Source of the DNA: an uncultured Chloroflexia bacterium
GTDB lineage: Bacteria; Chloroflexota; Dehalococcoidia; DSTF01; JACRBR01
DNA length: 64,000 nt
Assembly: GCA_963843685.1 (NCBI GenBank)
Contig: CAWJLO010000009.1
Coordinates: forward strand, 11,155 to 75,154
Direction: 5' to 3'
Position 1 is the first letter of the stretch. Every line of letters starts with the position of its first letter. This document shows, one piece after another, positions 13,251 to 26,909 of this stretch. The notes under the pieces are model-generated. The model saw only the letters and a list, made by a program, of their open reading frames with translations, ran no database searches and had not been told where the DNA came from. The position numbers were made by a program, and so were the translations under genes.

Positions 13251-14187
13251 CTACCACCAGATCTTGTCTTCGATGTCGCTCGGGAGGTCCTTGTAGTCGG
13301 TGGTCCAGAGCTGGGTGCTGAGGTACTTCCAGCCGGCGTCGGCGAAGAGGCAGACGATGTTGCCGGCGTCCAGGCGCTCGGCGACGCGCTGGGCGGTCTT
13401 GACGACCGCGCCGGCGGAGATGCCGGCGAAGATGCCTTCTTTCTGCGTCAGCTCTTTCGATGACGCGAAGGAGGTGTGGGAATCGACGACGATCTTGCCG
13501 TCGAGGATGCTCTCGTCGAGGACGGGCGGGATGAAGCCTTCTTCCAGGCTGCGCAGGCCCTGCACGAGATCGCCAGGGTGCGGGACGGCGGCGACGATCT
13601 TCACGCCGGGCTTCTTCTCCTTGAGGTAGCGGCCGGTGCCGGTGAGCGTGCCTCCCGGTGCCCATGCCGGCGACGAAGACGTCGATCTCGGGCAGGTCGC
13701 GCAGGATCTCCGGGCCGGTGGTCTCGTAGTGGGCGCGGGGGTTCATCTCGTTGCCGTACTGGTACGGCATGAAGTAGGCGGGGTCTTCGGCGGCGATCTG
13801 GTTGGCCATCTCGATACTGCCGTTGGTGCCGCGGACGCCGTCCGAGTAGACGATCTCGGCGCCGAACGCCGTGAGCAGCTCGGTGCGCTCGGCGCTGACG
13901 CTCTCCGGGATTACGACCTTCAGACGGTAGCCCTTGATGCGGCAGATCATGGCGAGCGAGATGCCGGTGTTGCCGGACGTCGGCTCGAGGACGATGCGGT
14001 CCTTCGTGAGGACGCCGCGACGCTCGGCGTCCTCGATCATGTACTTCGCGATGCGATCCTTGACGCTGCCGCTGGGGTTCTGGCCCTCGAGCTTTGCGTA
14101 CAGGTGGACGCCGGGCTTCGGGCTCATCCGCGTCATCTCGACGAGGGGGGTGTTACCGATGGCGTCGATGAGGTTCTCGTACAGCAT
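13251..14187 (-). CDS. cysM: Cysteine synthase, CysM type (likely CysO-thiocarboxylate dependent); frameshift ~13655
   Basis: IGNTPLV, NPSGSVKDR (PLP Lys), EPTSGNTG, GMGTGGT across an extra G, ADAGWKYLST and extended C-terminal ...KIWW; near cysO. Confidence 0.85.
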
Positions 14188-14189
14188 GG

Positions 14190-14603
14190 CTATCGCGGCC
14201 CCGCCTGCCAGACGCCGATGACGTTTCCGGCTGGGTCGCGGAACGTCGCGATCCAGAGTTCACCCTCCGGGTAAGGGGCGCGGACGATCTCGCCGCCGTT
14301 CGCCTCGATCTTCGCGACGGTGTCGTCGATGCGGTCGACGTAGACGTAGGGGAGCACGCCGGGATCGCGCGAGATGGCGTGGCCGGTGATGAAGGCGCCG
14401 ATCAGGTCGCCGCTCGTGTCGGCGAACGAGCGATGCGCGGGGTTCTGGTCGTCGCGGCTGCTCCAGCCGAAGACGGCGGTGTAGAAGGCGGCCGAGCGGT
14501 CGACGTCGAGCGCGGGGATCTGGACGTAGGAGAGCTTGCCGTTGCGCGCGAGCTGTACGTCTACGCCGTTGACGGTCTCCCCCTGTGTCGTGGCCTCGCT
14601 CAT
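14190..14603 (-). CDS. VOC/glyoxalase-bleomycin resistance family protein
   Basis: DVDRSAAFYTAVFGW, KIEANGGEIV, FRDPAGNVIGVWQ. Confidence 0.88.
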   Translation of the reverse strand: MSEATTQGETVNGVDVQLARNGKLSYVQIPALDVDRSAAFYTAVFGWSSRDDQNPAHRSFADTSGDLIGAFITGHAISRDPGVLPYVYVDRIDDTVAKIEANGGEIVRAPYPEGELWIATFRDPAGNVIGVWQAGPR

Positions 14604-14622
14604 GCTCGCGTCTCCAGTCCGG

Positions 14623-14892
14623 CTAGCCGCCGGCCAGCGCCGGGAGGATGGAGATGGTGTCGCCGTCCTTCACGCGCGTGTCGAGCTGGTCGAGGTACCG
14701 GATGTCCTCGTCGTTCAGGTAGATGTTGACGAAGCGATGCAGGTGGCCCTCCTGCATGATCTGCTGCTTGAAGCCGGGGTACGACGTGTCCAGGTTCGAG
14801 AGCAGCTCGGCGACGGTTCCGCCGTCTCCCTCGACGACCTTGGCGCCGGTCACCTTCTGCAGCACCGATGTCACTTTTACCTTGACGGCCAT
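14623..14892 (-). CDS. cysO: MoaD/ThiS/CysO ubiquitin-like sulfur carrier
   Basis: 89 aa, HRFVNIYLNDEDIRYL...DGDTISILPALAGG-stop (free C-terminal GG). Confidence 0.88.
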   Translation of the reverse strand: MAVKVKVTSVLQKVTGAKVVEGDGGTVAELLSNLDTSYPGFKQQIMQEGHLHRFVNIYLNDEDIRYLDQLDTRVKDGDTISILPALAGG

Positions 14893-14931
14893 GTGTGTCC
14901 CCTGTCCGCACTCAGTGGTTCGTAGTTCCGG

Positions 14932-16110
14932 TCAGACCTGCGCCTTGTCGCGAACGGCCTTCGCGGCGTCCATCGCCTTCTGCTCTTCCTCGTTCGTGTG
15001 GCCGAAGGCGCCGCCGCAGAACGCCTCGTAGTCGATGAGCTCCGTCACCGTGGGCTCTTCGCCGCAGAGGACGCAGTGCGGGTCGCGACGGATGCGCACC
15101 TGGCGGAACTCCATGGCGAGTGCGTCGTACAGCAGCAGGCGGCCGTGCAGCGAGTCGCCGACGCCGAGGATGAGCTTCAGCACTTCCGTCGCCTGGATCG
15201 TGCCGACCGTGCCGCAGAGCGCACCGAGCACGCCCGCTTCCGCGCAGCTCGGCACCATGCCGGGAGGCGGCGGGGAGGGGTAGAGGCAGCGGTAGCAGCC
15301 CTGTCCGGGCAGGTACACCGTCACCTGACCCTCGAAGAGCAGGATCGAGCCATCGACCAGCGGCTTCTTCAGGAAGTGGCAGGCGTCGTTGACGAGATAG
15401 CGCGCGGCGAAGTTGTCGGCGCCGTTGATGACGTAGTCGTATGGCTTGATGATCTCGAAGGCGTTGTCCGACGTAATCGGCACCTGGTAGGTCACGACTT
15501 CGACGTCCGGGTTGTAGGCGTTGATGGTCTCCTTTGCGGAGATGGCCTTCGACTTGCCGATGTCGGCGTTCTGGTGGAGGATCTGGCGCTGCAGGTTCGA
15601 GATGTCGACCGTGTCGAAGTCGACGACGCCGATCTTGCCGATGCCGGCGAGCGCGAGATAGACGGCGATGGGCGAGCCGAGGCCGCCGGCGCCGATGATG
15701 AGCACGCTGGACTCCATGATCTTGCGCTGCCCGGAAGGGCCGACCTGCGGCATGATGATGTGGCGCGAGTACCGGTTCACCTGCTCTGCCGTAAGCGCGC
15801 CGATGCGCTTTCGCTCGGGCTCGTCGCCTGAGCCGCCGGCCATGGCCGGGATCACGGCGACTTCGTCGCCGTCGTTGAGCTTCGTCGTCACGCCGTCGAG
15901 GGCGCTGATCTCCGTCTTGTTCACGTAGATGTTGATGTGGCGGGGCACCTCCGTGCCGCCCGCGCCGAAGACGAGGTCACGGAAGCCGGGGAACTGTTTG
16001 TCCAGGTTGGCAAGCACCTCGGCGACGTCGCTGCCCTCGGCGGTGACGTGCTGGCGGTTGCCGGCGAACTTCCGGAACGGCGTGGGGATGTAGACGGAGA
16101 CGGCGGGCAT
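14932..16110 (-). CDS. moeB: Fusion of MoaD/ubiquitin-like domain and MoeB/ThiF E1-like adenylyltransferase
   Basis: N-terminal beta-grasp ending IPAMAGG (15832-15837) reads through into RYSRHIIMPQVG, GAGGLGSP, DFDTVDISNLQRQ, CYRCLY, SCAEAG, CVLC; no rhodanese domain. Confidence 0.88.
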   Translation of the reverse strand: MPAVSVYIPTPFRKFAGNRQHVTAEGSDVAEVLANLDKQFPGFRDLVFGAGGTEVPRHINIYVNKTEISALDGVTTKLNDGDEVAVIPAMAGGSGDEPERKRIGALTAEQVNRYSRHIIMPQVGPSGQRKIMESSVLIIGAGGLGSPIAVYLALAGIGKIGVVDFDTVDISNLQRQILHQNADIGKSKAISAKETINAYNPDVEVVTYQVPITSDNAFEIIKPYDYVINGADNFAARYLVNDACHFLKKPLVDGSILLFEGQVTVYLPGQGCYRCLYPSPPPPGMVPSCAEAGVLGALCGTVGTIQATEVLKLILGVGDSLHGRLLLYDALAMEFRQVRIRRDPHCVLCGEEPTVTELIDYEAFCGGAFGHTNEEEQKAMDAAKAVRDKAQV

Positions 16111-16252
16111 TGCGCTCCCTCCGGAGTACGGCGAACGGCGGCTCATCTCGTCAATGACGCCGGTCGTGCGGTCGATGTGCAGATGTCCGTGTTCCATTAT
16201 TCCCTGTCCATTCCCCATGCGGATCGAAATCGTACCGAGACTCGCTAGTTAT

Positions 16253-17197
16253 TTACAAGTTAACACTCAGGTAGCGCTCACCGGTGTCGCAGAGCATCGT
16301 CACGACGCGCTTACCGGCGCCGAGCTTCTTCGCGACGGCGATCGACGCCCAGACGTTGGCGCCGGCGCTGATGCCGACGAGCAATCCCTCTTCGCGCGTG
16401 AGCCGCGCGGCCATCGCGAAGGCGTCCTCGTCCTTCACCTGGATCAGCTCATCGCAGACATCGCGGTTGAGCACGCCGGGCACGAAGCTGGCGCCGATGC
16501 CCTGGATGCCGTGGATGCCGGCTTTGCCGCCCGCCAGCACGGGCGATCGCGACGGCTCGACAGCGACGACGTGCACACTGCCCAGCTCCTGCTTCAGCAC
16601 CTCGCCGACGCCGGTCACGGTGCCGCCGGTGCCCACGCCAGCAACGAATGCATCGAGGCGGCCGGCGGTGTCGCGCAGGATCTCGCGCGCGGTTGTCTCG
16701 CGATGCGCCTCAGGGTTGGCGGCGTTGTTGAACTGCTGCGGCATGAAGTAGCGGTGTTTCTCGACCAGTTCCTGCGCGGCGTACACGGCGCCGCTCATCC
16801 CCTCGATGGCCGGCGTCAGGACGAGCTGGGCGCCGAACCGCGTGAGCAGGCGGCGCCGCTCGACGCTCATGTCCTCAGGCATGGTGAGGATGAGCTTGTA
16901 GCCCTTCACCGCCGCGACCATCGCGAGACCGATACCGGTGTTACCGGAGGTCGGCTCGACGATGGTGTCGCCGGGCTTGAGCGCGCCGTCGCGTTCGGCC
17001 GCCTCGATCATCGAGAGGGCGATGCGGTCCTTCACGCTGCCGGCGGGGTTGAGCGACTCCATCTTGCCGAGCACCTCCGCGGCGCCTTCGGGCACGACGC
17101 GGTTCAGGCGCACGAGCGGCGTCGAGCCGACGAGGTCGAGCACGCTTTCGGCGATGCCGGCTTCTCGCTGCAGGCGGATCTTCGCGCTAGATGGCAT
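16253..17197 (-). CDS. cysK: Cysteine synthase A (O-acetylserine sulfhydrylase)
   Basis: VGSTPLVRL, NPAGSVKDR, EPTSGNTG, GVGTGGT, HGIQGIGA, DTGERYLS. Confidence 0.93.
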   Translation of the reverse strand: MPSSAKIRLQREAGIAESVLDLVGSTPLVRLNRVVPEGAAEVLGKMESLNPAGSVKDRIALSMIEAAERDGALKPGDTIVEPTSGNTGIGLAMVAAVKGYKLILTMPEDMSVERRRLLTRFGAQLVLTPAIEGMSGAVYAAQELVEKHRYFMPQQFNNAANPEAHRETTAREILRDTAGRLDAFVAGVGTGGTVTGVGEVLKQELGSVHVVAVEPSRSPVLAGGKAGIHGIQGIGASFVPGVLNRDVCDELIQVKDEDAFAMAARLTREEGLLVGISAGANVWASIAVAKKLGAGKRVVTMLCDTGERYLSVNL

Positions 17198-17615
17198 AGC
17201 GGGCACCCGTGGCATCGTACTCGCGCTCACGCGCGGCCAGGTCGGCGATGGTGACGCCATCCAGGATCTTGCACGTCGCCTCCTCCACCTCGTGCCAGAC
17301 TTCGTGCGCGGCGCGGCACTGGTGGCCCTCGTCGTGGAGGTGGGAGACGGGCGACAGTGAGCCCTCGAGCGTGCGGATGACGTCGCTCAGGCGGATCTCG
17401 TCGGGCCGGCGGATGAGCGCGTGGCCGCCCTGCGGGCCGCGGACGCTGCGGATGAAGCCGGCCTTGCGGAGGGTCGTCAGCAGTTGGTCCAGGTAGGGCT
17501 CCGGGATGCGCTGGCGCGCGGCGATCGTGGCGCTCTGGACTGTGCCCTCACCGTAGTGGTGGGCCAGCTCGATGAGGGCGCGGACGCCGTAGTCACCCTT
17601 GGTTGAGATGCGCAT
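17187..17615 (-). CDS. Rrf2 family transcriptional regulator, CymR-like
   Basis: MRISTKGDYGVRAL, YLDQLLTTLRKAGFIRSVRGPQGG; lacks the 3-Cys Fe-S motif; ends ...RYAI. Confidence 0.88.
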   Translation of the reverse strand: MRISTKGDYGVRALIELAHHYGEGTVQSATIAARQRIPEPYLDQLLTTLRKAGFIRSVRGPQGGHALIRRPDEIRLSDVIRTLEGSLSPVSHLHDEGHQCRAAHEVWHEVEEATCKILDGVTIADLAAREREYDATGARYAI

Positions 17616-17642
17616 TTTGAATCTGTCTGCCGAGGTTGTCCT

Positions 17643-17696
17643 GAAAGTTAAGCGATTACATCAACAATTATAGCGAGGGGGTCAAGGGGGGTGCAA
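17643..17696 (-). promoter_or_regulatory. Sigma70-type promoter (TTGCAC-N18-TATAAT) with adjacent 24-bp putative operator
   Basis: -35 at 17696-17691, -10 at 17672-17667; motif GAAAGTTAAGCGATTACATCAACA (17643-17666) shared with sir promoter. Confidence 0.65.
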
Positions 17697-17750
17697 GGGG
17701 GTGGGGGAGGGTTCGAAAGGTTGGAGGCGGGCAGAACACGCAAGTTCGTC

Positions 17751-18161
17751 TCAGAACAGCGGATCCAGTTCAACCTGACCTTCTCGAATCGCCACGACTA
17801 GCCGGAAGTCAGCCAACAGATCCATGCCGAGCACGGGGCCCAGTCGATGATCCGGTTGCACCGGCACCGCCACCCAAATCGGAAACGGGCGCAACGGAGG
17901 GTTGGCGTGGGAGAAGGCGATTGCAGCCCGGACCCGAGCGTAGTCCTGCGAGCCGCCGATGCCGACGCCGCGGACACGCCTGGAAGAGGTCAGAAGCGGG
18001 GCTGAATCCGCGCCCAACGCGTCGAAGATCGAGCGCGGAAGGATGGTCAGGTGTGAGCCGGTGTCAACGAGCAGTTCCACGACCACCGATCCCGCCGTGC
18101 CGGGGAGCGATACGTCAGCCCTGACGAAGGGTTGCTGGTCACGGACGAACCCGCGAATCAA
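17751..18161 (-). CDS. Retropepsin-like (clan AA) aspartic protease
   Basis: LLVDTGS catalytic motif, GVGIGG flap, VLGMDLL motif. Confidence 0.8.
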   Translation of the reverse strand: MIRGFVRDQQPFVRADVSLPGTAGSVVVELLVDTGSHLTILPRSIFDALGADSAPLLTSSRRVRGVGIGGSQDYARVRAAIAFSHANPPLRPFPIWVAVPVQPDHRLGPVLGMDLLADFRLVVAIREGQVELDPLF

Positions 18162-18424
18162 GGGGTGCGATACGGCCCCGACCCCGGGTAACGCTGCACC
18201 AATACTTCGCCCAGTCCGATGCCTCTGGCGCGCAGATCGCGAGTGACCTCGTCAGGATCAGCGGAGTGAATGAGCTCACCACGGACGATCACGAACCAGT
18301 GGTCGGGCCAGCGCAGCATCAATTCGTCGAAGAGCGCGTACTCGCGGGCGAGTTCCGCCTCAGTGATCTCGGTATCGGCTTTGCGGTCGATCGTCATCGC
18401 CTTCATCATACGCCCGCTGGCCAT
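18158..18424 (-). CDS. Small DUF5678-like protein paired with aspartic protease
   Basis: EYALFDELMLRWPDHWFVIVRGELIHSADPDE pattern; 4-nt overlap with protease. Confidence 0.55.
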   Translation of the reverse strand: MASGRMMKAMTIDRKADTEITEAELAREYALFDELMLRWPDHWFVIVRGELIHSADPDEVTRDLRARGIGLGEVLVQRYPGSGPYRTP

Positions 18425-18439
18425 GCGCGGGTCAACCCG

Positions 18440-19573
18440 TCACGCGAAGAGCAGGATGAGGGGGATGACGAAGATGACGCCGAGGAAGAGGGCGAAGCCG
18501 CGGCGGCTGCCGGTGGCGCGGTTGGCGGCGGCGAGGATGAGCTCGCGGAAGGGGTCGAAGACGAAGACGAGGATGAGGGTCGAGACGGCGAGGACGGCGA
18601 CCATCTCGCTGAAGATGATGGTGAACGCGCGGGGCGCGTCGAGCAGGAGGGTGACGAAGAGCTTGTCGACGAAGGTGCCGATCTGGGCGCCCATGACGTA
18701 GGGGATGATGTACTTGCGGCGGACGATGCCCTTCATGGAGAGGGGCACGAGGATGGTGAGCGAGACAGCGACCGAAACCGTGAGCACGGTGATGGCGATG
18801 CCGAGGACGAACATCGTGAACTTCTGGTGGAAGAACTCGACGACGCGCTGGAAGCGGGCGTCGGTCGACTCCAGCGTGGGGAGGGCGGCGTCGAACAACT
18901 TGAGCGAGACGACGGCGGCGACGACGCCGGCGGCGAAGAGGCCGAGCAGGGGGAGGAAGCCGTCGAAGAAGTCGACGGCCGGTGCGTAGGCGTCGTTGAC
19001 GCCCTTGATGAGGCCCGGCGAGCCGAAGCGCACGCCGTCAAACCAACCGCTCTTGAGGAACAGGTAGCCGAGCGGGATGCCGAGCGCGTAGACGGCGGCC
19101 GTGGTCATGAGCGCGACGGCACCGATGTAGAGGCCGTCCGGCTCGCGGCGGCCACGGACGTAGTAGAGGAAGCCGACGAAGAGGACGATGAAGGACGCGC
19201 CGAGACGGCCGCCACTGATCATGAAGAAGGTCTCGGTGTCGGTGAGGACGCCGCGGCTGAAGAGCGTGAGCGCGACGGAGGCGACGGGCGAGCCGCTGCC
19301 GAGGATGTAGGCGTTGAGCCAGCCGAAGCCGATGTAGTTGACGGCGCCGTGGACGCTGAGGGCGTCGAGGATCGGCGTGATGCCGGTGGCGCCGCGCTTC
19401 ATGAGCTGGAGCGAGAGGATGAAGAGGGCGAGCGCGACGAAGACGGCGGCGAGCCGACGTACGAGCCGGTAGCTCAGCACCAGCCGCGGCACGCGCGGGA
19501 CGGGGATGGCGAGATCGCCGTCGAGCGCGGGGGCGACGGGGACGGCCGGGCGCGCGGGGCCCGCTTCCATCAC
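18440..19573 (-). CDS. Na+/Pi-cotransporter-like membrane protein
   Basis: About 10 TM segments, two internal repeats with [15 protein letters not shown] and GAQIGT motifs; overlaps sat stop. Confidence 0.7.
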
Positions 19574-20734
19574 GAGACCTTCGCGCGCTCCGCGGCGATC
19601 AGCACGCGCGCGACTTCGGGCCGGGAGAACTCGTGCGGCGGCTCGATGCCCTGCGAGAGGAACTCGCGCACCTGCGTGCCGGAGAGCGAGACGCGCTCTT
19701 CGGCGCCGTGGGGGCAGGTCTTGCTGGAGGCCATGCCCTCGCAGCGGCGGCAGAAGAACGTGTGCTCGAAGAACAGGGGCGTGATGCCGAGGCGCTGCGG
19801 GTCGAACTCATCGAAGATGCGCTGCGCGTCGTAGGTGCCGTAGTAGCTGCCAACGCCGGCGTGGTCGCGGCCGACGATGAAGTGCGAGCAGCCGTAGTTC
19901 TTGCGCATGATGGCGTGGAAGATGGCCTCGCGCGGGCCGGCGTAGCGCATGGCGGCGGGCAGCACCGAGAGCAGGACGCGGTCCTTCGGGTAGTAGTTGT
20001 CGAGCAGCACCTTGTAGCACTCCATGCGGACGTCGGCGGGAATGTCGTCCGACTTCGTGTCGCCGACGAGGGGGTGGAGGAGGAGTCCGTCGGTGATCTC
20101 CAGCGCGGCCTTCTGGATGTACTCGTGGGCCCGGTGGACGGGGTTGCGTGTCTGGAAGCCGACGACGCGCTTCCATCCGCGGTCGGCGAAGGCAGCGCGG
20201 GTCTGCGCCGGGTCGAGGCGGTACTCCGGGAACGTGGGATTGGCGGGGCGGCGGAACACCTGCAGCGGGCCGCCAGCGAGCAGTTCGTCCTGGGCGTAGA
20301 CGGCGGCGACGCCGGGATGCTTGTCTTCGGTCGTGCGGTAGACCTTCTCGGCCTCGTGCTCCTTGTCGTATTCGAAGACCTCGGCGACCGTCATGACGGC
20401 GAGCGGATTGCCGTCGCCGTCGGTCAGCGCGATGTCACCGTTGTACGCGTTGGCCTGCTCCTTCGAAATGCTGAGCGTGACGGGGATCGACCACGGGAGG
20501 CCGTCCGGCAGAGTGCATGGTGTCGACGACGCTCCTGTACTGGGCCTGCGTCATGAAGCCATCGAGGGGGCTGAAGCCGCCGTTGGCGAGCAGCTCGAGG
20601 TCGGAGAGCTCGCGCGAGTTGAGCATGCGTTGCGGGAGCGAGCGCGCCTTGTCGGCGAGCGCGTTCGTCGCGTCGCCGCGCACCTCGCGCGGGTTGAGCT
20701 TGCCGCCGTGTGGTTCGATCAGTCCGTCGGTCAT
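19570..20734 (-). CDS. sat: Sulfate adenylyltransferase (frameshift ~20512)
   Basis: [58 protein letters not shown]. Confidence 0.93.
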
Positions 20735-20758
20735 TGGGTCATCCGTTTCATATGACGA

Positions 20759-20784
20759 GGGCGGCCACGTGAGGCCGCCCCTAC
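20759..20784 (-). repeat. GTAG-type REP-like palindrome
   Basis: Minus strand GTAGGGGCGGCCTCACGTGGCCGCCC: GTAG tetranucleotide plus GC hairpin in the cysC-sat spacer. Confidence 0.5.
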
Positions 20785-20801
20785 GATTGCGGTCGATCTT
20801 C

Positions 20802-21351
20802 TCAGGCGCTGACAGCGGCGGGGATGTGGCCGAGCTCTTCGAGGCGGGCGATCACCTTGGCGACGCTCTCCTCCAGCTCCTCGAGCTCCGAATCGACGGT
20901 GACCTCCGGATCCAGCGGCTCCTCGTACGGGTCACTGATGCCGGTGAAGTTCTCGATCTCGCCCTTCAACGCCTTCTCGTAGAGGCCCTTGACGTCGCGG
21001 CGGGTGAGCTCCGGGATGGAGCAGCGGACGTAGACCTCGACGAAGTTGCCGACGTTGCGTCGCACTTCGTCGCGGATCTCGCGGTAGGGCGAGATGGCGG
21101 ACGCGAGGACGCAGACGCCGTTGCGGGTGAGGACTTCGGCGACCCAGCCGATGCGGCGGATGTTGGTGTCGCGGTCCTCCTTGCTGAAGCCGAGGCCCTT
21201 GCTCAGGTGCGTGCGCACGACGTCGCCGTCGAGCTTCTCGAGCTTCGCTGACGCCGCGCTCACGCAGCAGCGGCTCGATGGCGTCCGAGATGGTCGTCTT
21301 GCCGGCGCCGGAGAGCCCGGTGAACCAGATCGTGAATCCCTGCTGTTCCAA
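20802..21351 (-). CDS. cysC: Adenylyl-sulfate kinase (frameshift ~21247)
   Basis: [56 protein letters not shown]; TTG start after GAGGAG. Confidence 0.92.
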
Positions 21352-21359
21352 CTGTTTGC

Positions 21360-21404
21360 TCCTCACCCCCGACCCCCTCTCCCCAGGTGCGTGGAGAGGG
21401 GGAG
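21360..21404. repeat. Short palindromic intergenic element (CCCTCTCCC...GGAGAGGG type)
   Basis: CCTCACCCCCGACCCCCTCTCCCCAGGTGCGTGGAGAGGGGG hairpin between cysH and cysC. Confidence 0.5.
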
Positions 21405-21415
21405 CTTGACTCACT

Positions 21416-22162
21416 TCATTCGGCGGCGACGTCCCTTACCTCGCTCGGCGCGGGGTCGGGGACGTGCAGGCCGCACTCCGTCTTGTCGAAGCCCTGCCAG
21501 CGACCGCTGCGGGGGTCATCGCCGGGCGCCACTGCCTTCGTGCAGTGCGTGCAGCCGATGCTCGGGTAGCCGCGGTCGTGCAGCTCGTTGTACGGCACGG
21601 AGTTGTCCAGGATGTACTTCCAGACCTGCGACTCCGTCCAGCCGGCCAACGCGTTGATCTTTACGAGGTCAAACTTCTCGTCCCACTCGACGATGTCGAT
21701 CTCGGCGCGGCTCTTCGCCTGGTCACGACGGATGCCGCTGATCCACGCGCGCTTGCCTTCGAGGGCGCGCCGGTTGGGCTCCACCTTGCGGATGGCGCAG
21801 CAGGCGTCGGGGTCGCGAGACCAGAGCGCGTCGCCGTGCTTCTGCGCCTGCTGCTGCGGGGTGAGGAGCGACATGTAGCCGGCCGGCTCGAAGCCGTACT
21901 TCGCGGCGGCCAGATCCCGGAGCTTGTAGGTCTCCGGGAAGAGGAAGTCCGTGTCCAGGTAGAACACCTCGACGCCCTTGTCGATGCCCATGATCATGTC
22001 GAGGAGCACCATGCCTGAGGGGCCGCCGAAGCTGCAGGCGAGCGTGAGGCCGGGCTGGTAGGTGTCGACTGCCCAGCGCAGGATCTCCTGCGGCGTCCGG
22101 CCCTCGAGCGCGGCGGACGCCGCCTTCAAGTCGTCGATCGCGTCGCTTGTCGCCTGCACCAT
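21416..22162 (-). CDS. cysH: APS/PAPS reductase with [4Fe-4S] motifs (APS reductase type)
   Basis: SFGG, LDTDFLFPET, CCAIRKVEP, SIGCTHCT, RSGRW, KTECGLH. Confidence 0.92.
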   Translation of the reverse strand: MVQATSDAIDDLKAASAALEGRTPQEILRWAVDTYQPGLTLACSFGGPSGMVLLDMIMGIDKGVEVFYLDTDFLFPETYKLRDLAAAKYGFEPAGYMSLLTPQQQAQKHGDALWSRDPDACCAIRKVEPNRRALEGKRAWISGIRRDQAKSRAEIDIVEWDEKFDLVKINALAGWTESQVWKYILDNSVPYNELHDRGYPSIGCTHCTKAVAPGDDPRSGRWQGFDKTECGLHVPDPAPSEVRDVAAE

Positions 22163-23934
22163 CAGACCGCGCACTCCCCTTCGCCCATGTCGTCGAGGGT
22201 GAAGAACTTGGTCTGGCCCCAGTCGACGTAGGCCATCGGGTTCTCGTTGAACTGCGGCACGACCTTGTACTCGGCGAGCACTTCCTGCACGTGAGGGGTG
22301 CCGACGCGCGCGGACCATGACGCGAACTTCTCGCCGTCGCCGCGCTCACCGACGTAGGCGTCGATCAGCTTCTCGACGGCGTCAGGGATGTGCCGCGCGG
22401 GGAGCTTCATGGTGATCTTGCCGAGGCGGCCGTCGCCCTGCGCGTTACCGCCGAGCAGGAGCTGGAACGCGGGGACCTGGCGCTCGCCCACGCGGATGGC
22501 CATGCCGTAGAAGCCGATGTCGGCGACGTGGTGCTGGCCGCAGGAGTTCGGGCAGCCGCTGATCTTGATCTTGATGTCGTTGACGAGCGGGTCGCGGTAG
22601 CGGCCGTTGCCGGCGAGGATGCGCTCGCGGAGCTCGGTGCCGAGCCCCTTCGAGGAGGTCACGCCGATGCTGCAGGTGTCGGCGCCGGGGCAGGTCATGA
22701 CGTCCGAGATGGTCATGGCGTGGTCTTCGGCGAGGCCGATGTCGGCCAGCGCACCGTGGACGGCCGTCAGGTCGTCCTCGTGCACCCAGCGCAGCACGAA
22801 GTTCTGCGTCGCGGCCGTGCGGACGTGGCCGCCGGCGTACTTTCGGGCGATCTCGGCGAGGGCGTGCATCTGGTCCGCCGTGACGTCGCCGATCGGGAGC
22901 AGCACGTGAACGGTGAAGTACGGCTGGATCTTCTGCTTGATGGCGTTGGTGCGGCGCCAGACGTCGAAGCCGGGGCGAGGCGCCGCGGGGCCGCCGTTGT
23001 TCGCCGCGTAGGAGCCGTAGGCGGGTGGCTCCTCGAGCAGCGTGAAGTCCGGCTCGCGGTAGCGCTGGTCGGTGGCGGGAGGCAGTGTGGCGAGCTCCAA
23101 CTCGTAGAGCCGGCGGAACTCGTCGATGCCAAGCTTTGCGATGAGGAACTTGATGCGGGCCTTGTTCTTGTTGCGGCGCTCGCCGAGGCGGTCCCAGACG
23201 CGGATCACGGCCTCGATCGTGCGGAGCTGCTCCGACACGGGGATGTAGTCGACGAGCACGTCGGCAACGCGCGGGGCGGCGCCGAGACCGCCGCCGACGC
23301 TGACGCGGAAGCCCTGCTGGCCGCCGCGCTCCACGGCCATGAGGCCGATGTCGTGGATGGGGATGAGGCCGCGGTCCTCTTCGCTGGCGGAGTAGCTGAT
23401 CTTGAACTTTCGGGGGAGCTTCTGGTTGACGGGGTTGCGCAGGAAGTAGCGCATCGCCGCCTCGGCGTAGGGCGTGATGTCGAAGACGCAGTCGTCGGCG
23501 ATGCCGCTGAGCGGATCGGCGGTGACGTTGCGGACGGTGTTGCCGCAGGCCTCACGCGTGGTGACGCCGACCTCGGCAAGACGGCGCATCACCTTCGGCG
23601 CATCCTCCAGCATGACGAAGTGGAGCTGGATCGCCTGGCGGGTGGTGACGTGGCCGAGCTTGCGCAGGGTGTATTGCTCGGCGCATTCGGCGATGGCGTG
23701 GAGCTGGTCGGGGGTCATGGTGCCGTGGGGCACCTTAATGCGCATCATCTGGCGGTCGGCCTGGCGCTGGCCGTAGGTGCCGTGCTGGAGGCGGAAGGGG
23801 CGGAAGTCGTCGCCGAGGCCGCCGCCAGCGCGCCAGGCGAGCGCTTCCTTCTCGAAGTTGTTGATCTCCGCCTGGACGACGGGATCGCTGGACTTGTCCT
23901 CGGCGAACTCGGAGCGCTTCACTTCTGTGACCAT
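22162..23934 (-). CDS. sir: Siroheme nitrite/sulfite reductase (ferredoxin-type Sir)
   Basis: TTRQAIQLH, ACGNTVRNV, LPRKFKI, CPGADTC, SGCPNSCGQH, C-terminal GEGECAV; in sulfate assimilation operon. Confidence 0.9.
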   Translation of the reverse strand: MVTEVKRSEFAEDKSSDPVVQAEINNFEKEALAWRAGGGLGDDFRPFRLQHGTYGQRQADRQMMRIKVPHGTMTPDQLHAIAECAEQYTLRKLGHVTTRQAIQLHFVMLEDAPKVMRRLAEVGVTTREACGNTVRNVTADPLSGIADDCVFDITPYAEAAMRYFLRNPVNQKLPRKFKISYSASEEDRGLIPIHDIGLMAVERGGQQGFRVSVGGGLGAAPRVADVLVDYIPVSEQLRTIEAVIRVWDRLGERRNKNKARIKFLIAKLGIDEFRRLYELELATLPPATDQRYREPDFTLLEEPPAYGSYAANNGGPAAPRPGFDVWRRTNAIKQKIQPYFTVHVLLPIGDVTADQMHALAEIARKYAGGHVRTAATQNFVLRWVHEDDLTAVHGALADIGLAEDHAMTISDVMTCPGADTCSIGVTSSKGLGTELRERILAGNGRYRDPLVNDIKIKISGCPNSCGQHHVADIGFYGMAIRVGERQVPAFQLLLGGNAQGDGRLGKITMKLPARHIPDAVEKLIDAYVGERGDGEKFASWSARVGTPHVQEVLAEYKVVPQFNENPMAYVDWGQTKFFTLDDMGEGECAV

Positions 23935-23953
23935 GGGGCCTCCCGGTGTCTTG

Positions 23954-24006
23954 GAAAGTGAATCGATTTAGTCAACATTATTATCGGGAGGGGGAGGTTG
24001 AGTCAA
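23954..24006 (-). promoter_or_regulatory. Promoter of sir operon (TTGACT -35; AATAAT/GATAAT -10) with 24-bp putative operator
   Basis: -35 at 24006-24001; motif GAAAGTGAATCGATTTAGTCAACA at 23954-23977. Confidence 0.65.
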
Positions 24007-24034: not shown

Positions 24035-26909
24035 GCTACGGCGAGGGCGTGGCGGGTGCGGGCGATCGGAAGTGGCGAGGTCGAGGCGGTAGATGATGGT
24101 GCGGCGGGGCGGGTCGTAGCCGCCATCAGGAGCGTTGACGTGGGAGGTCGACTCCAGCAGCCAGATCCGACCGTTGCGAACGGCGAAGCGTTGCGGCTGC
24201 GTGCAAGCCGCCCCGGGGCGTGGCCAGAGAGAACTCCTCTTCCCAGGTGACCCCGCCATCGGACGTGGAGATGACTTCAGGAGGCACGTCGGCAGCACGG
24301 CTGGTCCTAGCAATGGCGAACGCGTGCTTGGCGTCGACGGGCGCGAGAGATTGAATTGACCACGGCGCCGTCGACACGGTCTGCCACGTCAGGCCGCCGT
24401 CGCGTGTGGCCAGCAGGCACCGGCAGTCACCGTCCGGATTGTACGGCGAAGCCCAACCATCCAGCGGGGTGGCGAAGACGAAGCCCGGATACACAGGCTG
24501 CGGGACTGGACGCGACTGCCACGTTTCCCCGCCGTCGCTCGTGACGCGGAGTGGCTCGTCGCAGGCGGCATTGCACGGGGACCATCCAGATGTGCTGCGA
24601 CTCGATCGACGCCGTACGTGGCATTGGGCGTAGCGTCGATCTGACGCCAGGTGAGGCCGGCGTCGTCGGTACGCCAACAGTCCGTATCGTACGTCGCGCC
24701 ACGTCGCCCCACGATCGTCACTCAAGCGTATGGTGCCGTCCGGGCCGATGGCCGAGAGCGCGCCCGTCACGGCGATGCTCCAACTGAAGCCATCGCTTCG
24801 CGGCGCCCAGGTCGCACCGCCGTCGTCGCTGAACCACAGAGCGCCCGTGTCGGTGATTGCGTAGCCCTGATCTCGCGTGGCGAACGCAACGAGCGTGAGC
24901 ACTGGTCCTGCGTCAGTGGACGCTTCATCCCACTTCTCGCTGGTCGGATCGTAGACGAGGACACCAGACGCACCGCCGGCCTTCACACGATTCGCCGGCA
25001 CTCCCGTTTGGCCGCCTGACCCCTCCGGCACCCAGGTCCGCCCACCGTCCGAAGTGTACAAACGAACGAGCCCGGAGCATCCCGAGGTGGAGCACCGGAA
25101 GCTCGCGAACGCGTGCCGCACGTCGACGCGATCCACCGTCACGGGCTCGTCCTCTGACACACGTAACACCTCCCAGGACTGCCCGTCGTCGGGCGTGTGG
25201 AGCAGGGTCTGGCGGTCCGTGCAGGGGGCGTGCCCGGGGGCGCCGGGCTCTGCGTTCGGGTCATCCTGCGGATCGCCGGGGTGGCACTGGGTCGCGAGCA
25301 GCCAGCCGTCGTCCGCCGACGAACCAGAGGCCGATGAAGATGCCGTAGCCCGGCACGTCGACGCTCTGCCACGTGGCACCGCCGTCGGTGGTGTGGAGGA
25401 GGGCGCTGGCGCCGTGGGGAGGGAAGCCCTGCGGGCTCTGAACGTAGCCCGCCGTCCATGCCTCGTCAACGCTCACGGCGGCGATGGAGGAGACGGGCGC
25501 GTCGACGCCCGTGGGCTGCGGCGTCCACGTCAGGCCGCCGTCATCGGTGTGGAGGATGACGTTGCCGGCGCCGCCGACCCAGGCGTGCTCGCGGTCGGCG
25601 ATGGCGATGGGGCCGATGAAGTCGTCGGCGGAGTCGGTCTCGCGCCACGTCTGGCCGCCATCGGTCGTGCGCTCGATGCCGTGGCCGATGATGGCGAGAC
25701 CGAACTCATCGTCGTACATCTCGATGGCGGTGGCGGAGTCGGCAGGGTGGTCGTAGATCTTCGTCCCATCCGCCGGTGGTGGCTGCGGCGGGCGAGGGCG
25801 TGGGGCCTTCGAGCGGGGCCTCGGCAGATCCGCCGCACGCGACGAGCAGGGTAGCCGAGCAGGCGAGCGCAAGATAAGGCGATCGACCCGGCGGCACGAA
25901 CTCAGCGTAGGACACGGGACGAGCCCCGACTGTGAGCCAGACAGTGCACATGAGCCGCGTACGGTCGACCGAGAGAGAACGTGCGCATCTTCGACGCCAC
26001 AGCATTCGCCGGCACTCCCGTTTGGCCGCCTGACCCCTCCGGCATCCAGGTCCGCCCACCGTCCGAAGTGTACAAACGAACGAGCCCGGAGCATCCCGAG
26101 GTGGAGCACCGGAAGCTCGCGAATGCGTGCCGCACGTCGACGCAATCCACCGTCACGGGCTCTCCTCTGACACACGTAACACCTCCCAGGACTGCCCGTC
26201 GTCGGGCGTGTGGAGCAGGGTCTGGCGGTCCGTGCAGGGGGTGTGGCCGGGGGCGCCGGGCTCTGCGTTCGGGTCATCCTGCGGGATCGCCAGGGTGGCA
26301 CTGGGTCGCGAGCAGCCAGCCGTCGTCCCCGACGAACCAGAGGCCGATGAAGATGCCGTAGCCCGGCACGTCGACGCTCTGCCATGTGGCGCCGCCGTCG
26401 GTGGTGTGGAGGAGGGCGCTGGCGCCGTGGGGAGGGAAGCCCTGCGGGCTCTGAACGTAGCCCGCCGTCCATGCCTCGTCAACGCTCACGGCGGCGATGG
26501 AGGAGACGGGCGCGTCGACGCCCGTGGGCTGCGGCGTCCACGTCAGGCCGCCGTCATCGGTGTGGAGGATGACGTTGCCGGCGCCGCCGACCCAGGCGTG
26601 CTCGCGATCGGCGATGGCGATGGGGCCGATGAAGTCGTCGGCGGAGTCGGTCTCGCGCCACGTCAGGCCGCCGTCGGTCGTGCGCTCGATGCCGTGGCCG
26701 ATGATGGCGAGACCGAACTCATCGTCGTACATCTCGATGGCGGTGGCGGAGTCGGCAGGGTGGTCGTAGATCTTCTCCCAGCCGCCGGTGGTGGCTGCGG
26801 CGGGCGAGGGCGTGGGGCCTTCGAGCGGGGCCTCGGCAGATCCGCCGCACGCGACGAGTAGGGTAGCCGAGCAGGCGAGCGCAAGTAAGGCGATGCTCAG
26901 TAAACGCAC
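24035..26909 (-). CDS. BNR/Asp-box beta-propeller (YCF48-like) lipoprotein, fragmented by frameshifts and an internal duplication
   Basis: Lipobox LLVACG; many TxDGGxTW Asp-boxes across ORFs 26274-26909, 24126-25469, 23981-24313; 3' boundary approximate. Confidence 0.75.
24990..26894. repeat. ~890-bp direct tandem duplication (24990-25883 and 26004-26894)
   Basis: Near-identical sequence offset by ~1.01 kb, separated by ~120 bp of unrelated sequence. Confidence 0.95.

What the first reader, a model, noticed from the sequence alone, without database searches (positions are those of the whole stretch)
13251..24006. Self-contained sulfate-to-protein-thiocarboxylate cysteine cluster lacking Mec/JAB peptidase and rhodanese
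Seen: co-oriented sir, cysH, cysC, sat, transporter, protease pair, rrf2, cysK, Ubl::MoeB, cysO, VOC and cysM. Known: Mycobacterium CysO/CysM needs MoeZ (E1 plus rhodanese) and the JAB peptidase Mec. The Wolinella HcyS/HcyF/HcyD/Sir pathway loads sulfite-reductase-derived sulfide onto an adenylated carrier for homocysteine. Inference: this is a hybrid in which Sir feeds sulfide straight to CysO-AMP for CysM, in parallel with the free-sulfide CysK route. No JAB gene lies in the 64 kb, so the step that releases cysteine from CysO-Cys is unexplained.
Basis: partly seen in the sequence, partly recalled or inferred. Interest (0 to 1): 0.75.

Follow-up and report, generated by a model that had tools for sequence, protein, structure and literature searches.

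The report
Chloroflexota cysteine cluster, Mec encoded elsewhere
This Chloroflexota gene cluster likely turns sulfate into cysteine by two routes, one of them the carrier-protein route known from mycobacteria; the peptidase and sulfur-transfer enzyme reported as missing are present together elsewhere in the same genome, so it is a rearranged variant of a known pathway rather than a pathway with a gap.

Summary
The gene list is right; the headline is not. All twelve named genes are present on the minus strand, and CysM/CysO are Mycobacterium-type. Single-base frameshifts in cysM, sat and cysC are absent from short-read contigs, so likely assembly errors. The genome does encode a Mec-type JAB peptidase with an intact JAMM motif (contig C32), two genes downstream of a CysA2/CysA3-type tandem rhodanese. 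Across 120 Dehalococcoidia genomes, 65 of 66 with this CysM have Mec, 24 within 7 kb of cysM. 'Sir feeds CysO directly' remains possible: sir and rrf2-cysK-moeB-cysO-cysM share one operator. But the sulfurtransferase sits next to cysM more often (11 versus 3 genomes), and 13 CysM genomes have it without a sir match. I favour the stand-alone sulfurtransferase as donor (about 45%) over free sulfide (about 35%). Residual interest: an unclassified 120-aa sulfurtransferase neighbour with an invariant C-x-DDG cysteine, and an invariant internal GG in the fusion. The scan noted a related Chloroflexota cluster before (e1-1166539).

The parts
23955..24006 (-). sigma70-like promoter (TTGACT-18-AATAAT) with a candidate Rrf2 operator (23980-23955) upstream of sir
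   Evidence: operator upstream of sir in 8 of 8 relatives with enough flank
22162..23934 (-). sir, ferredoxin-type siroheme sulfite/nitrite reductase, 590 aa; sulfite specificity inferred from context
   Evidence: PF01077 E 2e-58, PF03460; no NCBIfam model over cut-off
21416..22162 (-). cysH, APS/PAPS reductase
   Evidence: NF002537 253 bits over cut-off 154
20802..21363 (-). cysC, APS kinase; one extra base near 21248 (start approximate)
   Evidence: two frames match PF01583; base left out in contig of run X2
19570..20734 (-). sat, ATP sulfurylase; one extra base near 20512
   Evidence: PF14306 + PF01747; base left out in X1 and X2
18440..19573 (-). Na+/Pi-cotransporter-family membrane protein, candidate sulfate importer (inferred from position after sat)
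   Evidence: PF02690 E 1e-8; in 29 of 80 related loci
17751..18424 (-). 88-aa ORF and clan-AA aspartyl protease; poorly conserved passengers
   Evidence: 1 and 5 of 80 loci
17644..17696 (-). second promoter (TTGCAC-18-TATAAT, read by eye; missed by the scan) with overlapping candidate Rrf2 operator (17669-17644)
   Evidence: sequence, alignment of 21 upstream regions, motif core in 67 of 73 related loci
17187..17615 (-). Rrf2-family regulator, nearest CymR
   Evidence: NF047409 124 bits, under cut-off 195; 73 of 80 loci
16253..17197 (-). cysK, O-acetylserine sulfhydrylase A
   Evidence: TIGR01139 445 bits over cut-off 351
14932..16110 (-). Ubl::MoeB fusion, 392 aa: N-terminal ThiS/MoaD domain ending in internal AGG (aa 91-93), linker, E1 domain, no rhodanese; the only E1 match in the genome
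   Evidence: internal P-x-x-[AS]-GG in 78 of 78 full-length relatives, linker 9-39 aa
14623..14892 (-). CysO sulfur carrier, 89 aa, free C-terminal GG
   Evidence: PDB 4n6e_B E 2e-23, 3dwg_C E 1e-19
14190..14603 (-). VOC/glyoxalase-family gene, passenger
   Evidence: 4 of 80 loci
13251..14187 (-). Mycobacterium-type CysM (O-phosphoserine sulfhydrylase); one extra base near 13655
   Evidence: both halves hit 3dki/3dwg first (E 4e-54, 6e-24); base left out in X2, X3, X4

Best explanation
This is a conserved Dehalococcoidia gene set that likely makes cysteine from sulfate by two routes, and the Mec-type peptidase and CysA-type sulfurtransferase that the carrier route is predicted to need lie together on another contig of the same genome. 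Steps: (1) Sat, CysH and Sir reduce sulfate to sulfide (family matches shown; activity inferred). (2) CysE plus CysK join sulfide to O-acetylserine (genes shown; activity inferred). (3) The E1 domain of Ubl::MoeB adenylates CysO-GG (inferred from family). (4) Sulfur is put on CysO-AMP most likely by the stand-alone tandem rhodanese (active site CRIGER as in M. tuberculosis CysA2), standing in for the rhodanese domain of MoeZ; free sulfide from Sir is the close rival and both may operate (inferred; about 45% versus 35%). (5) CysM condenses CysO-COSH with O-phosphoserine (inferred from best structural homologue). (6) Mec on C32 releases cysteine and trims carriers made with residues after GG (gene and motif shown; activity inferred). 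The Rrf2 protein likely controls both window transcription units through one shared operator (motif shown; binding inferred); the sulfurtransferase-mec unit lacks that operator and likely serves all carriers of the cell.
For: Mec: G000:C32:54118-54528, Prok-JAB 83.5 bits, E-x-CG...HSHTHTEAYPSPTD; motif intact in 30 of 30 and 14 of 14 homologues. Present in 48 of 50 related genomes, 19 of 19 closest; in 65 of 66 CysM genomes of a 120-genome class sample, within 7 kb of cysM in 24; inside 14 of 80 loci around the fusion. 44 of 75 relatives' CysO carry residues after GG, as do two other carriers of this genome, which calls for a trimming peptidase. Sulfurtransferase: best PDB hits 3aax/3hwi E 7e-103 = M. 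tuberculosis CysA3/CysA2 (PMC6856128, passages); within 3 kb of mec in 13 of 19 closest and 19 of 50 genomes; within 2.5 kb of cysM in 11 class genomes against 3 for sir within 15 kb; 48 of 50 genomes with it have this CysM against 18 of 70 without; 13 CysM genomes have it with no sir match; directly upstream of a Ubl::MoeB fusion in L176. Precedent for E1 plus separate rhodanese: TtuC/TtuD and MoeB/YnjE (PMC5372739, PMC3227635, passages). Operator: top two genome-wide scores of a matrix built from relatives are upstream of rrf2 (47.0) and sir (24.9).
Against: 11 of 66 CysM genomes have a sir match but no match to this sulfurtransferase, and 7 have neither (single-protein queries at E 1e-60, genomes at least 90% complete, kin not independent), so it is not obligatory. 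The operator is upstream of sir (8 of 8) but in 0 of 33 windows upstream of the sulfurtransferase (the 33 include duplicates and genes lying inside operons), so that gene is not co-regulated with CysO/CysM here. In 11 closed Tepidiformaceae chromosomes neither sir, mec nor the sulfurtransferase lies within 100 kb of the E1 gene. If its sulfur came from cysteine, as for TtuD, the route would give no net cysteine; it needs thiosulfate or another inorganic sulfane source, which was not tested. No biochemical or expression data.
Confidence: 0.75

Rival explanations
1. One reading: sulfide made by Sir attacks CysO-AMP directly, as recalled for Wolinella HcyS/HcyF/Sir; the rhodanese has another job. 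Mec on C32 still releases cysteine.
For: Shared operator upstream of sir and rrf2; sir within 25 kb of the E1 in 9 of 19 closest genomes, the rest split by contig ends or missing; 11 CysM genomes have sir but no sulfurtransferase match; Iyer et al. 2006 row 4e describes rhodanese-less E1 in sulfate-reduction operons; no TusA/SirA match in this genome. Wolinella chemistry is recalled; the paper was not held.
Against: 13 CysM genomes have the sulfurtransferase and no sir match; sir is near cysM in only 3 of 66 class genomes and at least 460 kb from the E1 in all 12 closed chromosomes. Co-regulation with sir is already explained by CysK, which uses free sulfide.
Confidence: 0.35
2. A cysteine desulfurase (alone or through the rhodanese) supplies the sulfur, so the CysO/CysM branch mainly recycles or protects sulfur under oxidative stress, and the E1 chiefly serves molybdopterin, thiamine and MetO carriers.
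For: Only one E1 for seven ThiS/MoaD-family matches; several class-V aminotransferase/desulfurase-family genes; IscS donates to MoeB/MoaD in E. coli and TtuD takes sulfur from desulfurases.
Against: The E1 gene sits between cysK and cysO-cysM under a sulfate-assimilation operator in most related loci; a cysteine-fed route gives no net synthesis.
Confidence: 0.15
3. The original headline: cysteine is released from CysO-Cys without a JAB peptidase, by an unknown enzyme such as the cluster's aspartyl protease.
For: mec is in none of the 23 closest loci (L013-L034, L054); an aspartyl protease lies in the block.
Against: Mec is in the genome and in 65 of 66 CysM genomes; the protease is in only 5 of 80 loci, four of them at 31-34% identity.
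Confidence: 0.03

Closest known systems
Mycobacterium tuberculosis mec-cysO-cysM with MoeZR (PMC3227635, abstract and passages)
   Same: CysM and CysO are the closest solved homologues; Mec-type JAB present; CysA2/CysA3-type sulfurtransferase present; parallel CysE/CysK route.
   Different: E1 has no rhodanese domain and carries an N-terminal Ubl; it is encoded next to cysO; mec is moved to the sulfurtransferase locus in this family; sulfate-reduction genes adjoin.
Predicted operon types 4c and 4e of Iyer, Burroughs and Aravind 2006 (PMC1779556, section 12 and table passages)
   Same: [quoted passage not shown]
   Different: Combines 4c's cysteine synthase with 4e's rhodanese-less E1 and reduction genes; no SirA/TusA match, which 4e always has; no O-acetylhomoserine sulfhydrylase in the block.
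Thermus TtuB/TtuC/TtuD and E. coli MoaD/MoeB/YnjE (PMC5372739, PMC6225789, PMC3227635, passages)
   Same: Carrier, E1 and a separately encoded rhodanese protein. A 285-aa rhodanese, PDB 1uar, is hit at E 9e-101; that it is TtuD is recalled, not shown by a call.
   Different: Those systems take sulfur from cysteine for tRNA or cofactor synthesis, not for making cysteine.
Wolinella HcyS/HcyF/HcyD/Sir (recalled) and Streptomyces MetM/MetO (GapMind 2026 preprint 10.1101/2024.10.14.618325, passage)
   Same: Thiocarboxylated carrier trimmed by a JAB; this genome also has a ThrC-like-NIL-Ubl module on C19 resembling MetM/MetO.
   Different: Those make homocysteine; the window's acceptor enzyme is CysM-type.

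Membership tests
Mycobacterial CysO/CysM/Mec/MoeZ pathway | CysM of the O-phosphoserine/CysO type | tested here: met
   Both halves hit 3dki/3dwg first, with the GLRSLEEGF loop, GWKYLS and C-terminal tail aligned; both motifs in 70 of 73 relatives, the other 3 cut by contig ends
Mycobacterial CysO/CysM/Mec/MoeZ pathway | CysO-type carrier ending in GG beside cysM | tested here: met
Mycobacterial CysO/CysM/Mec/MoeZ pathway | JAMM/MPN+ peptidase Mec in the genome | tested here: met
   C32:54118-54528, intact motif; not adjacent in this family
Mycobacterial CysO/CysM/Mec/MoeZ pathway | E1 fused to a C-terminal rhodanese (MoeZR) | tested here: not met
   single ThiF match, ThiS+ThiF only; top 120 homologues all PF02597+PF00899; genome 90.5% complete
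Mycobacterial CysO/CysM/Mec/MoeZ pathway | Uses O-phosphoserine and CysO-COSH as substrates | not testable with these tools
   serA over cut-off with an adjacent class-V aminotransferase on C20 would supply O-phosphoserine; no assay
Iyer 2006 type 4e / Wolinella-type sulfur operon | Rhodanese-less E1 with sulfate activation and reduction genes | tested here: met
Iyer 2006 type 4e / Wolinella-type sulfur operon | SirA/TusA gene in the neighbourhood | tested here: not met
   no PF01206 match in the genome (90.5% complete)
Iyer 2006 type 4e / Wolinella-type sulfur operon | O-acetylhomoserine sulfhydrylase as acceptor enzyme in the cluster | tested here: not met
   PLP enzymes of the block are CysK and CysM
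Iyer 2006 type 4e / Wolinella-type sulfur operon | Sulfide from sulfite reductase forms the thiocarboxylate | not testable with these tools
   genomic evidence mixed
CysA2/CysA3-type thiosulfate sulfurtransferase (C32 gene) | Tandem rhodanese with CRIGER active-site loop | tested here: met
   motif as in PMC6856128
CymR | Score over the NCBIfam CymR cut-off | tested here: not met
   124 bits against 195; best named Rrf2 subfamily

The most novel reading that the evidence does not exclude
Dehalococcoidia replace MoeZ's rhodanese domain with a new two-protein sulfur relay: the CysA-type sulfurtransferase passes a persulfide to the invariant C-x-DDG cysteine of an unclassified 120-aa protein (no Pfam/NCBIfam family, no clear fold match), which delivers it to adenylated carriers; Mec also cuts the fused Ubl off the cell's only E1 at its invariant internal GG, gating all carrier-based sulfur transfer.
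Probability: 0.15. Interest if true: 0.65.

Novelty: new variant of a known kind. Interest (0 to 1): 0.3.

Why it matters
The puzzle posed (cysteine release without Mec) disappears. What remains is modest: a CysM that one review calls actinobacteria-only (PMC9547175, passage) is in 66 of 120 sampled Dehalococcoidia genomes, paired with a rhodanese-less E1, which makes this a clean test system for how a CysO-type carrier gets its sulfur (free sulfide versus a separate sulfurtransferase). It also gives a candidate Rrf2 operator and a small uncharacterised cysteine-tail protein family tied to CysA-type sulfurtransferases.

Tried and rejected
No JAB-free release mechanism needed. Second Prok-JAB match (C10:956118, 25 bits) reads as RadC-like by eye and was set aside. 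Frameshifts as pseudogenes: rejected. The enzyme after cysO in Tepidiformaceae first labelled 'cysK' is CysM-type. The moeB query was out of frame; its moeB counts are not used (corrected). ESM Atlas gave no usable hit for the two unknown C32 proteins. Fold searches of the 120-aa protein model (pLDDT 92.9) gave no Foldseek match at E 0.001 and best Z 4.3: inconclusive, not proof of a new fold. The Ubl::MoeB model was mediocre (pLDDT 68, linker disordered) and says nothing on cleavage. Names and taxa of distant homologues of the 120-aa protein could not be looked up. No RNA holder listed. A third operator-like site (C5:119052, score 24.3) lies inside the start of a 112-aa ORF and was not explained. 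Paper searches listed nothing on this Dehalococcoidia cluster; the library lacks most subscription papers, so this is weak.
Full report
Setting. The window is G000:C9:11155-75154 of a 3.44-Mb, 36-contig assembly, 90.5% complete. The nearest relatives of its Ubl::MoeB protein are Dehalococcoidia/Chloroflexota MAGs at 80-91% identity. The two runs holding over half of the sampled words are a soil and a salt-marsh metagenome (laid).

Observation. The minus-strand order sir, cysH, cysC, sat, transporter, 88-aa ORF, aspartyl protease, rrf2, cysK, Ubl::MoeB, cysO, VOC, cysM is as described. CysK passes the CysK cut-off, and a cysE over its cut-off is on C10. Both halves of CysM hit M. tuberculosis CysM first among solved structures (E 4e-54 and 6e-24) and CysO hits 4n6e_B and 3dwg_C. 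The E1 has an N-terminal ThiS-family domain and no rhodanese, and is the only ThiF match in the genome. cysM, sat and cysC each have one extra base against relatives; contigs of short-read-like runs leave one base out at 13654/13657, 20511/20513 and 21249, and the genes are in one frame in 69 of 69, 26 of 26 and 21 of 22 relatives. I read these as assembly errors.

The missing genes are not missing. A Prok-JAB search of the genome finds a 136-aa protein at C32:54118-54528 (83.5 bits) with the JAMM motif. It ends a co-oriented run: tandem rhodanese (275 aa), 120-aa unknown, 211-aa unknown, mec. The rhodanese matches 3aax/3hwi at E 7e-103, which are M. tuberculosis CysA3/CysA2 with the same CRIGER loop (PMC6856128, passages). 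Of 50 related genomes (50 of the 80 loci, chosen by me: 19 of the 23 closest and 31 others that had no mec in their locus), 48 have mec, including 19 of 19 closest; mec and the sulfurtransferase lie within 3 kb in 13 of 19 closest and 6 of 31 others. One of these genomes, G002 (loci L014, L105), is marked unpublished; it adds one to these counts and to the 8 of 8 operator count below, and no claim depends on it. mec lies inside 14 of the 80 loci, usually just after cysM, but in none of the 23 closest; in three more genomes the sulfurtransferase-mec run is 15-23 kb from the E1. In an even sample of 120 class genomes at least 90% complete, 66 match the CysM C-terminal half at E 1e-40 or better (my threshold; weaker matches dropped as ordinary cysteine synthases), 65 of them have mec and 24 have it within 7 kb. 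44 of 75 relatives' CysO have residues after GG. So the locus was split in this family and the release step is ordinary.

Modules and regulation. The conserved core is rrf2-cysK-Ubl::MoeB-cysO-cysM (rrf2 73, cysO 78 of 80 loci, many cut by contig ends). A conserved motif overlaps a promoter upstream of rrf2. A matrix made from relatives only ranks the sites upstream of rrf2 (47.0) and sir (24.9) first in the genome, with a third at C5 (24.3). It is upstream of sir in 8 of 8 relatives, upstream of cysH in the 4 loci where cysH heads the block, and in 0 of 33 stretches upstream of the sulfurtransferase (duplicates and mid-operon genes included). I infer two Rrf2-controlled units plus a separately controlled carrier-servicing unit.

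Who gives sulfur to CysO. For Sir: co-regulation; linkage within 25 kb in 11 of 50 genomes (9 of 19 closest, most others split by contig ends); 11 CysM genomes with sir but no sulfurtransferase match; and the rhodanese-less E1 of sulfate operons in Iyer et al. 2006 (PMC1779556, section 12 and table passages). For the sulfurtransferase: adjacency to cysM in 11 class genomes against 3 for sir; 48 of 50 genomes with it have this CysM; 13 CysM genomes have it without a sir match; direct adjacency to a Ubl::MoeB gene in L176; precedents TtuD and YnjE (passages); cysA, cysM and moeB share a regulon in S. coelicolor, and a cited title reports cysteine auxotrophy on loss of a rhodanese-like gene in Saccharopolyspora (PMC4340878, passages and reference list only). 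Seven CysM genomes have neither match. These counts use single-protein queries, draft genomes and related taxa, so they show tendency only. I put the sulfurtransferase at about 45%, free sulfide at about 35%, a desulfurase-fed route at about 15%. The Wolinella details are recalled; the paper was not held.

What is left unexplained. (a) The fused Ubl keeps P-x-x-[AS]-GG in 78 of 78 full-length relatives before a linker of 9-39 residues. JAMM enzymes cut MoaD-MoaE fusions (PMC8832034, abstract and passages), so Mec may cut here; Ubl-E1 fusions as such are known (PMC2948915 passage; PMC1779556). (b) The 120-aa protein has 180 homologues and 84 representatives at 50% clustering, no Pfam or NCBIfam match, a confident model without clear fold match, and an invariant cysteine (31 of 31 aligned; 26 of 26 distant homologues that show the DDG motif, of 41 examined, and 119 of 119 close ones of 120). 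It neighbours a CysA-type gene in 9 of 10 loci from other Chloroflexota families and 15 of 15 metagenome loci (the latter mostly close to one query), mostly without mec. It is rare (9 of 300 phylum genomes), so it cannot be required for the pathway in general. A sulfurtransferase activated by its neighbouring gene product is known in M. tuberculosis (PMC12375888, title, abstract start and passages).

Verdict. A real cluster, built from described modules (M. tuberculosis CysO/CysM/Mec; Iyer types 4c and 4e), with a lineage-specific layout. The claimed gap came from reading one window. New variant of a known kind; interest 0.3. No supplementary files were read.

Noticed in passing
G000:C32:55167-55529 (-), L011, protein P0001: Unclassified 120-aa protein with invariant C-x-DDG tail, nearly always beside a CysA-type sulfurtransferase; candidate activator or persulfide carrier.
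   Followed up: partly
G000:C32:54531-55166 (-), L011:8532-9167: 211-aa acidic, cysteine-rich unknown protein directly upstream of mec in 20 of 30 mec loci; no Pfam, NCBIfam or Atlas hit.
   Followed up: partly
G000:C19:74006-76250 (-), L149: ThrC-like PLP enzyme, NIL-like small protein and a CysO-like carrier, resembling MetM/MetO; the same module adjoins the cysteine cluster in L089 and L091.
   Followed up: partly
G000:C27:135871-136809 (+): Second Mycobacterium-type CysM paralogue (53% to the window's C-terminal half) with K in place of the loop R (GLKSLADGFIP); similar second copies in many class genomes.
   Followed up: no
window 18440-19573: Na+/Pi-cotransporter-family protein conserved right after sat (29 of 80 loci); possible uncharacterised sulfate importer.
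   Followed up: no
G000:C13:15216-15497 and C11:46202-46402: MoaD-like carrier next to a molybdoenzyme and ThiS, both with residues after GG, further likely Mec substrates.
   Followed up: no
window 24126-26909: BNR-repeat protein region upstream of sir appears as two or three near-identical, frameshifted copies; tandem duplication or assembly artefact.
   Followed up: no
G000:C5:119052 (-): Third strong match to the Rrf2 operator, at the start of a 112-aa ORF of unknown function.
   Followed up: partly
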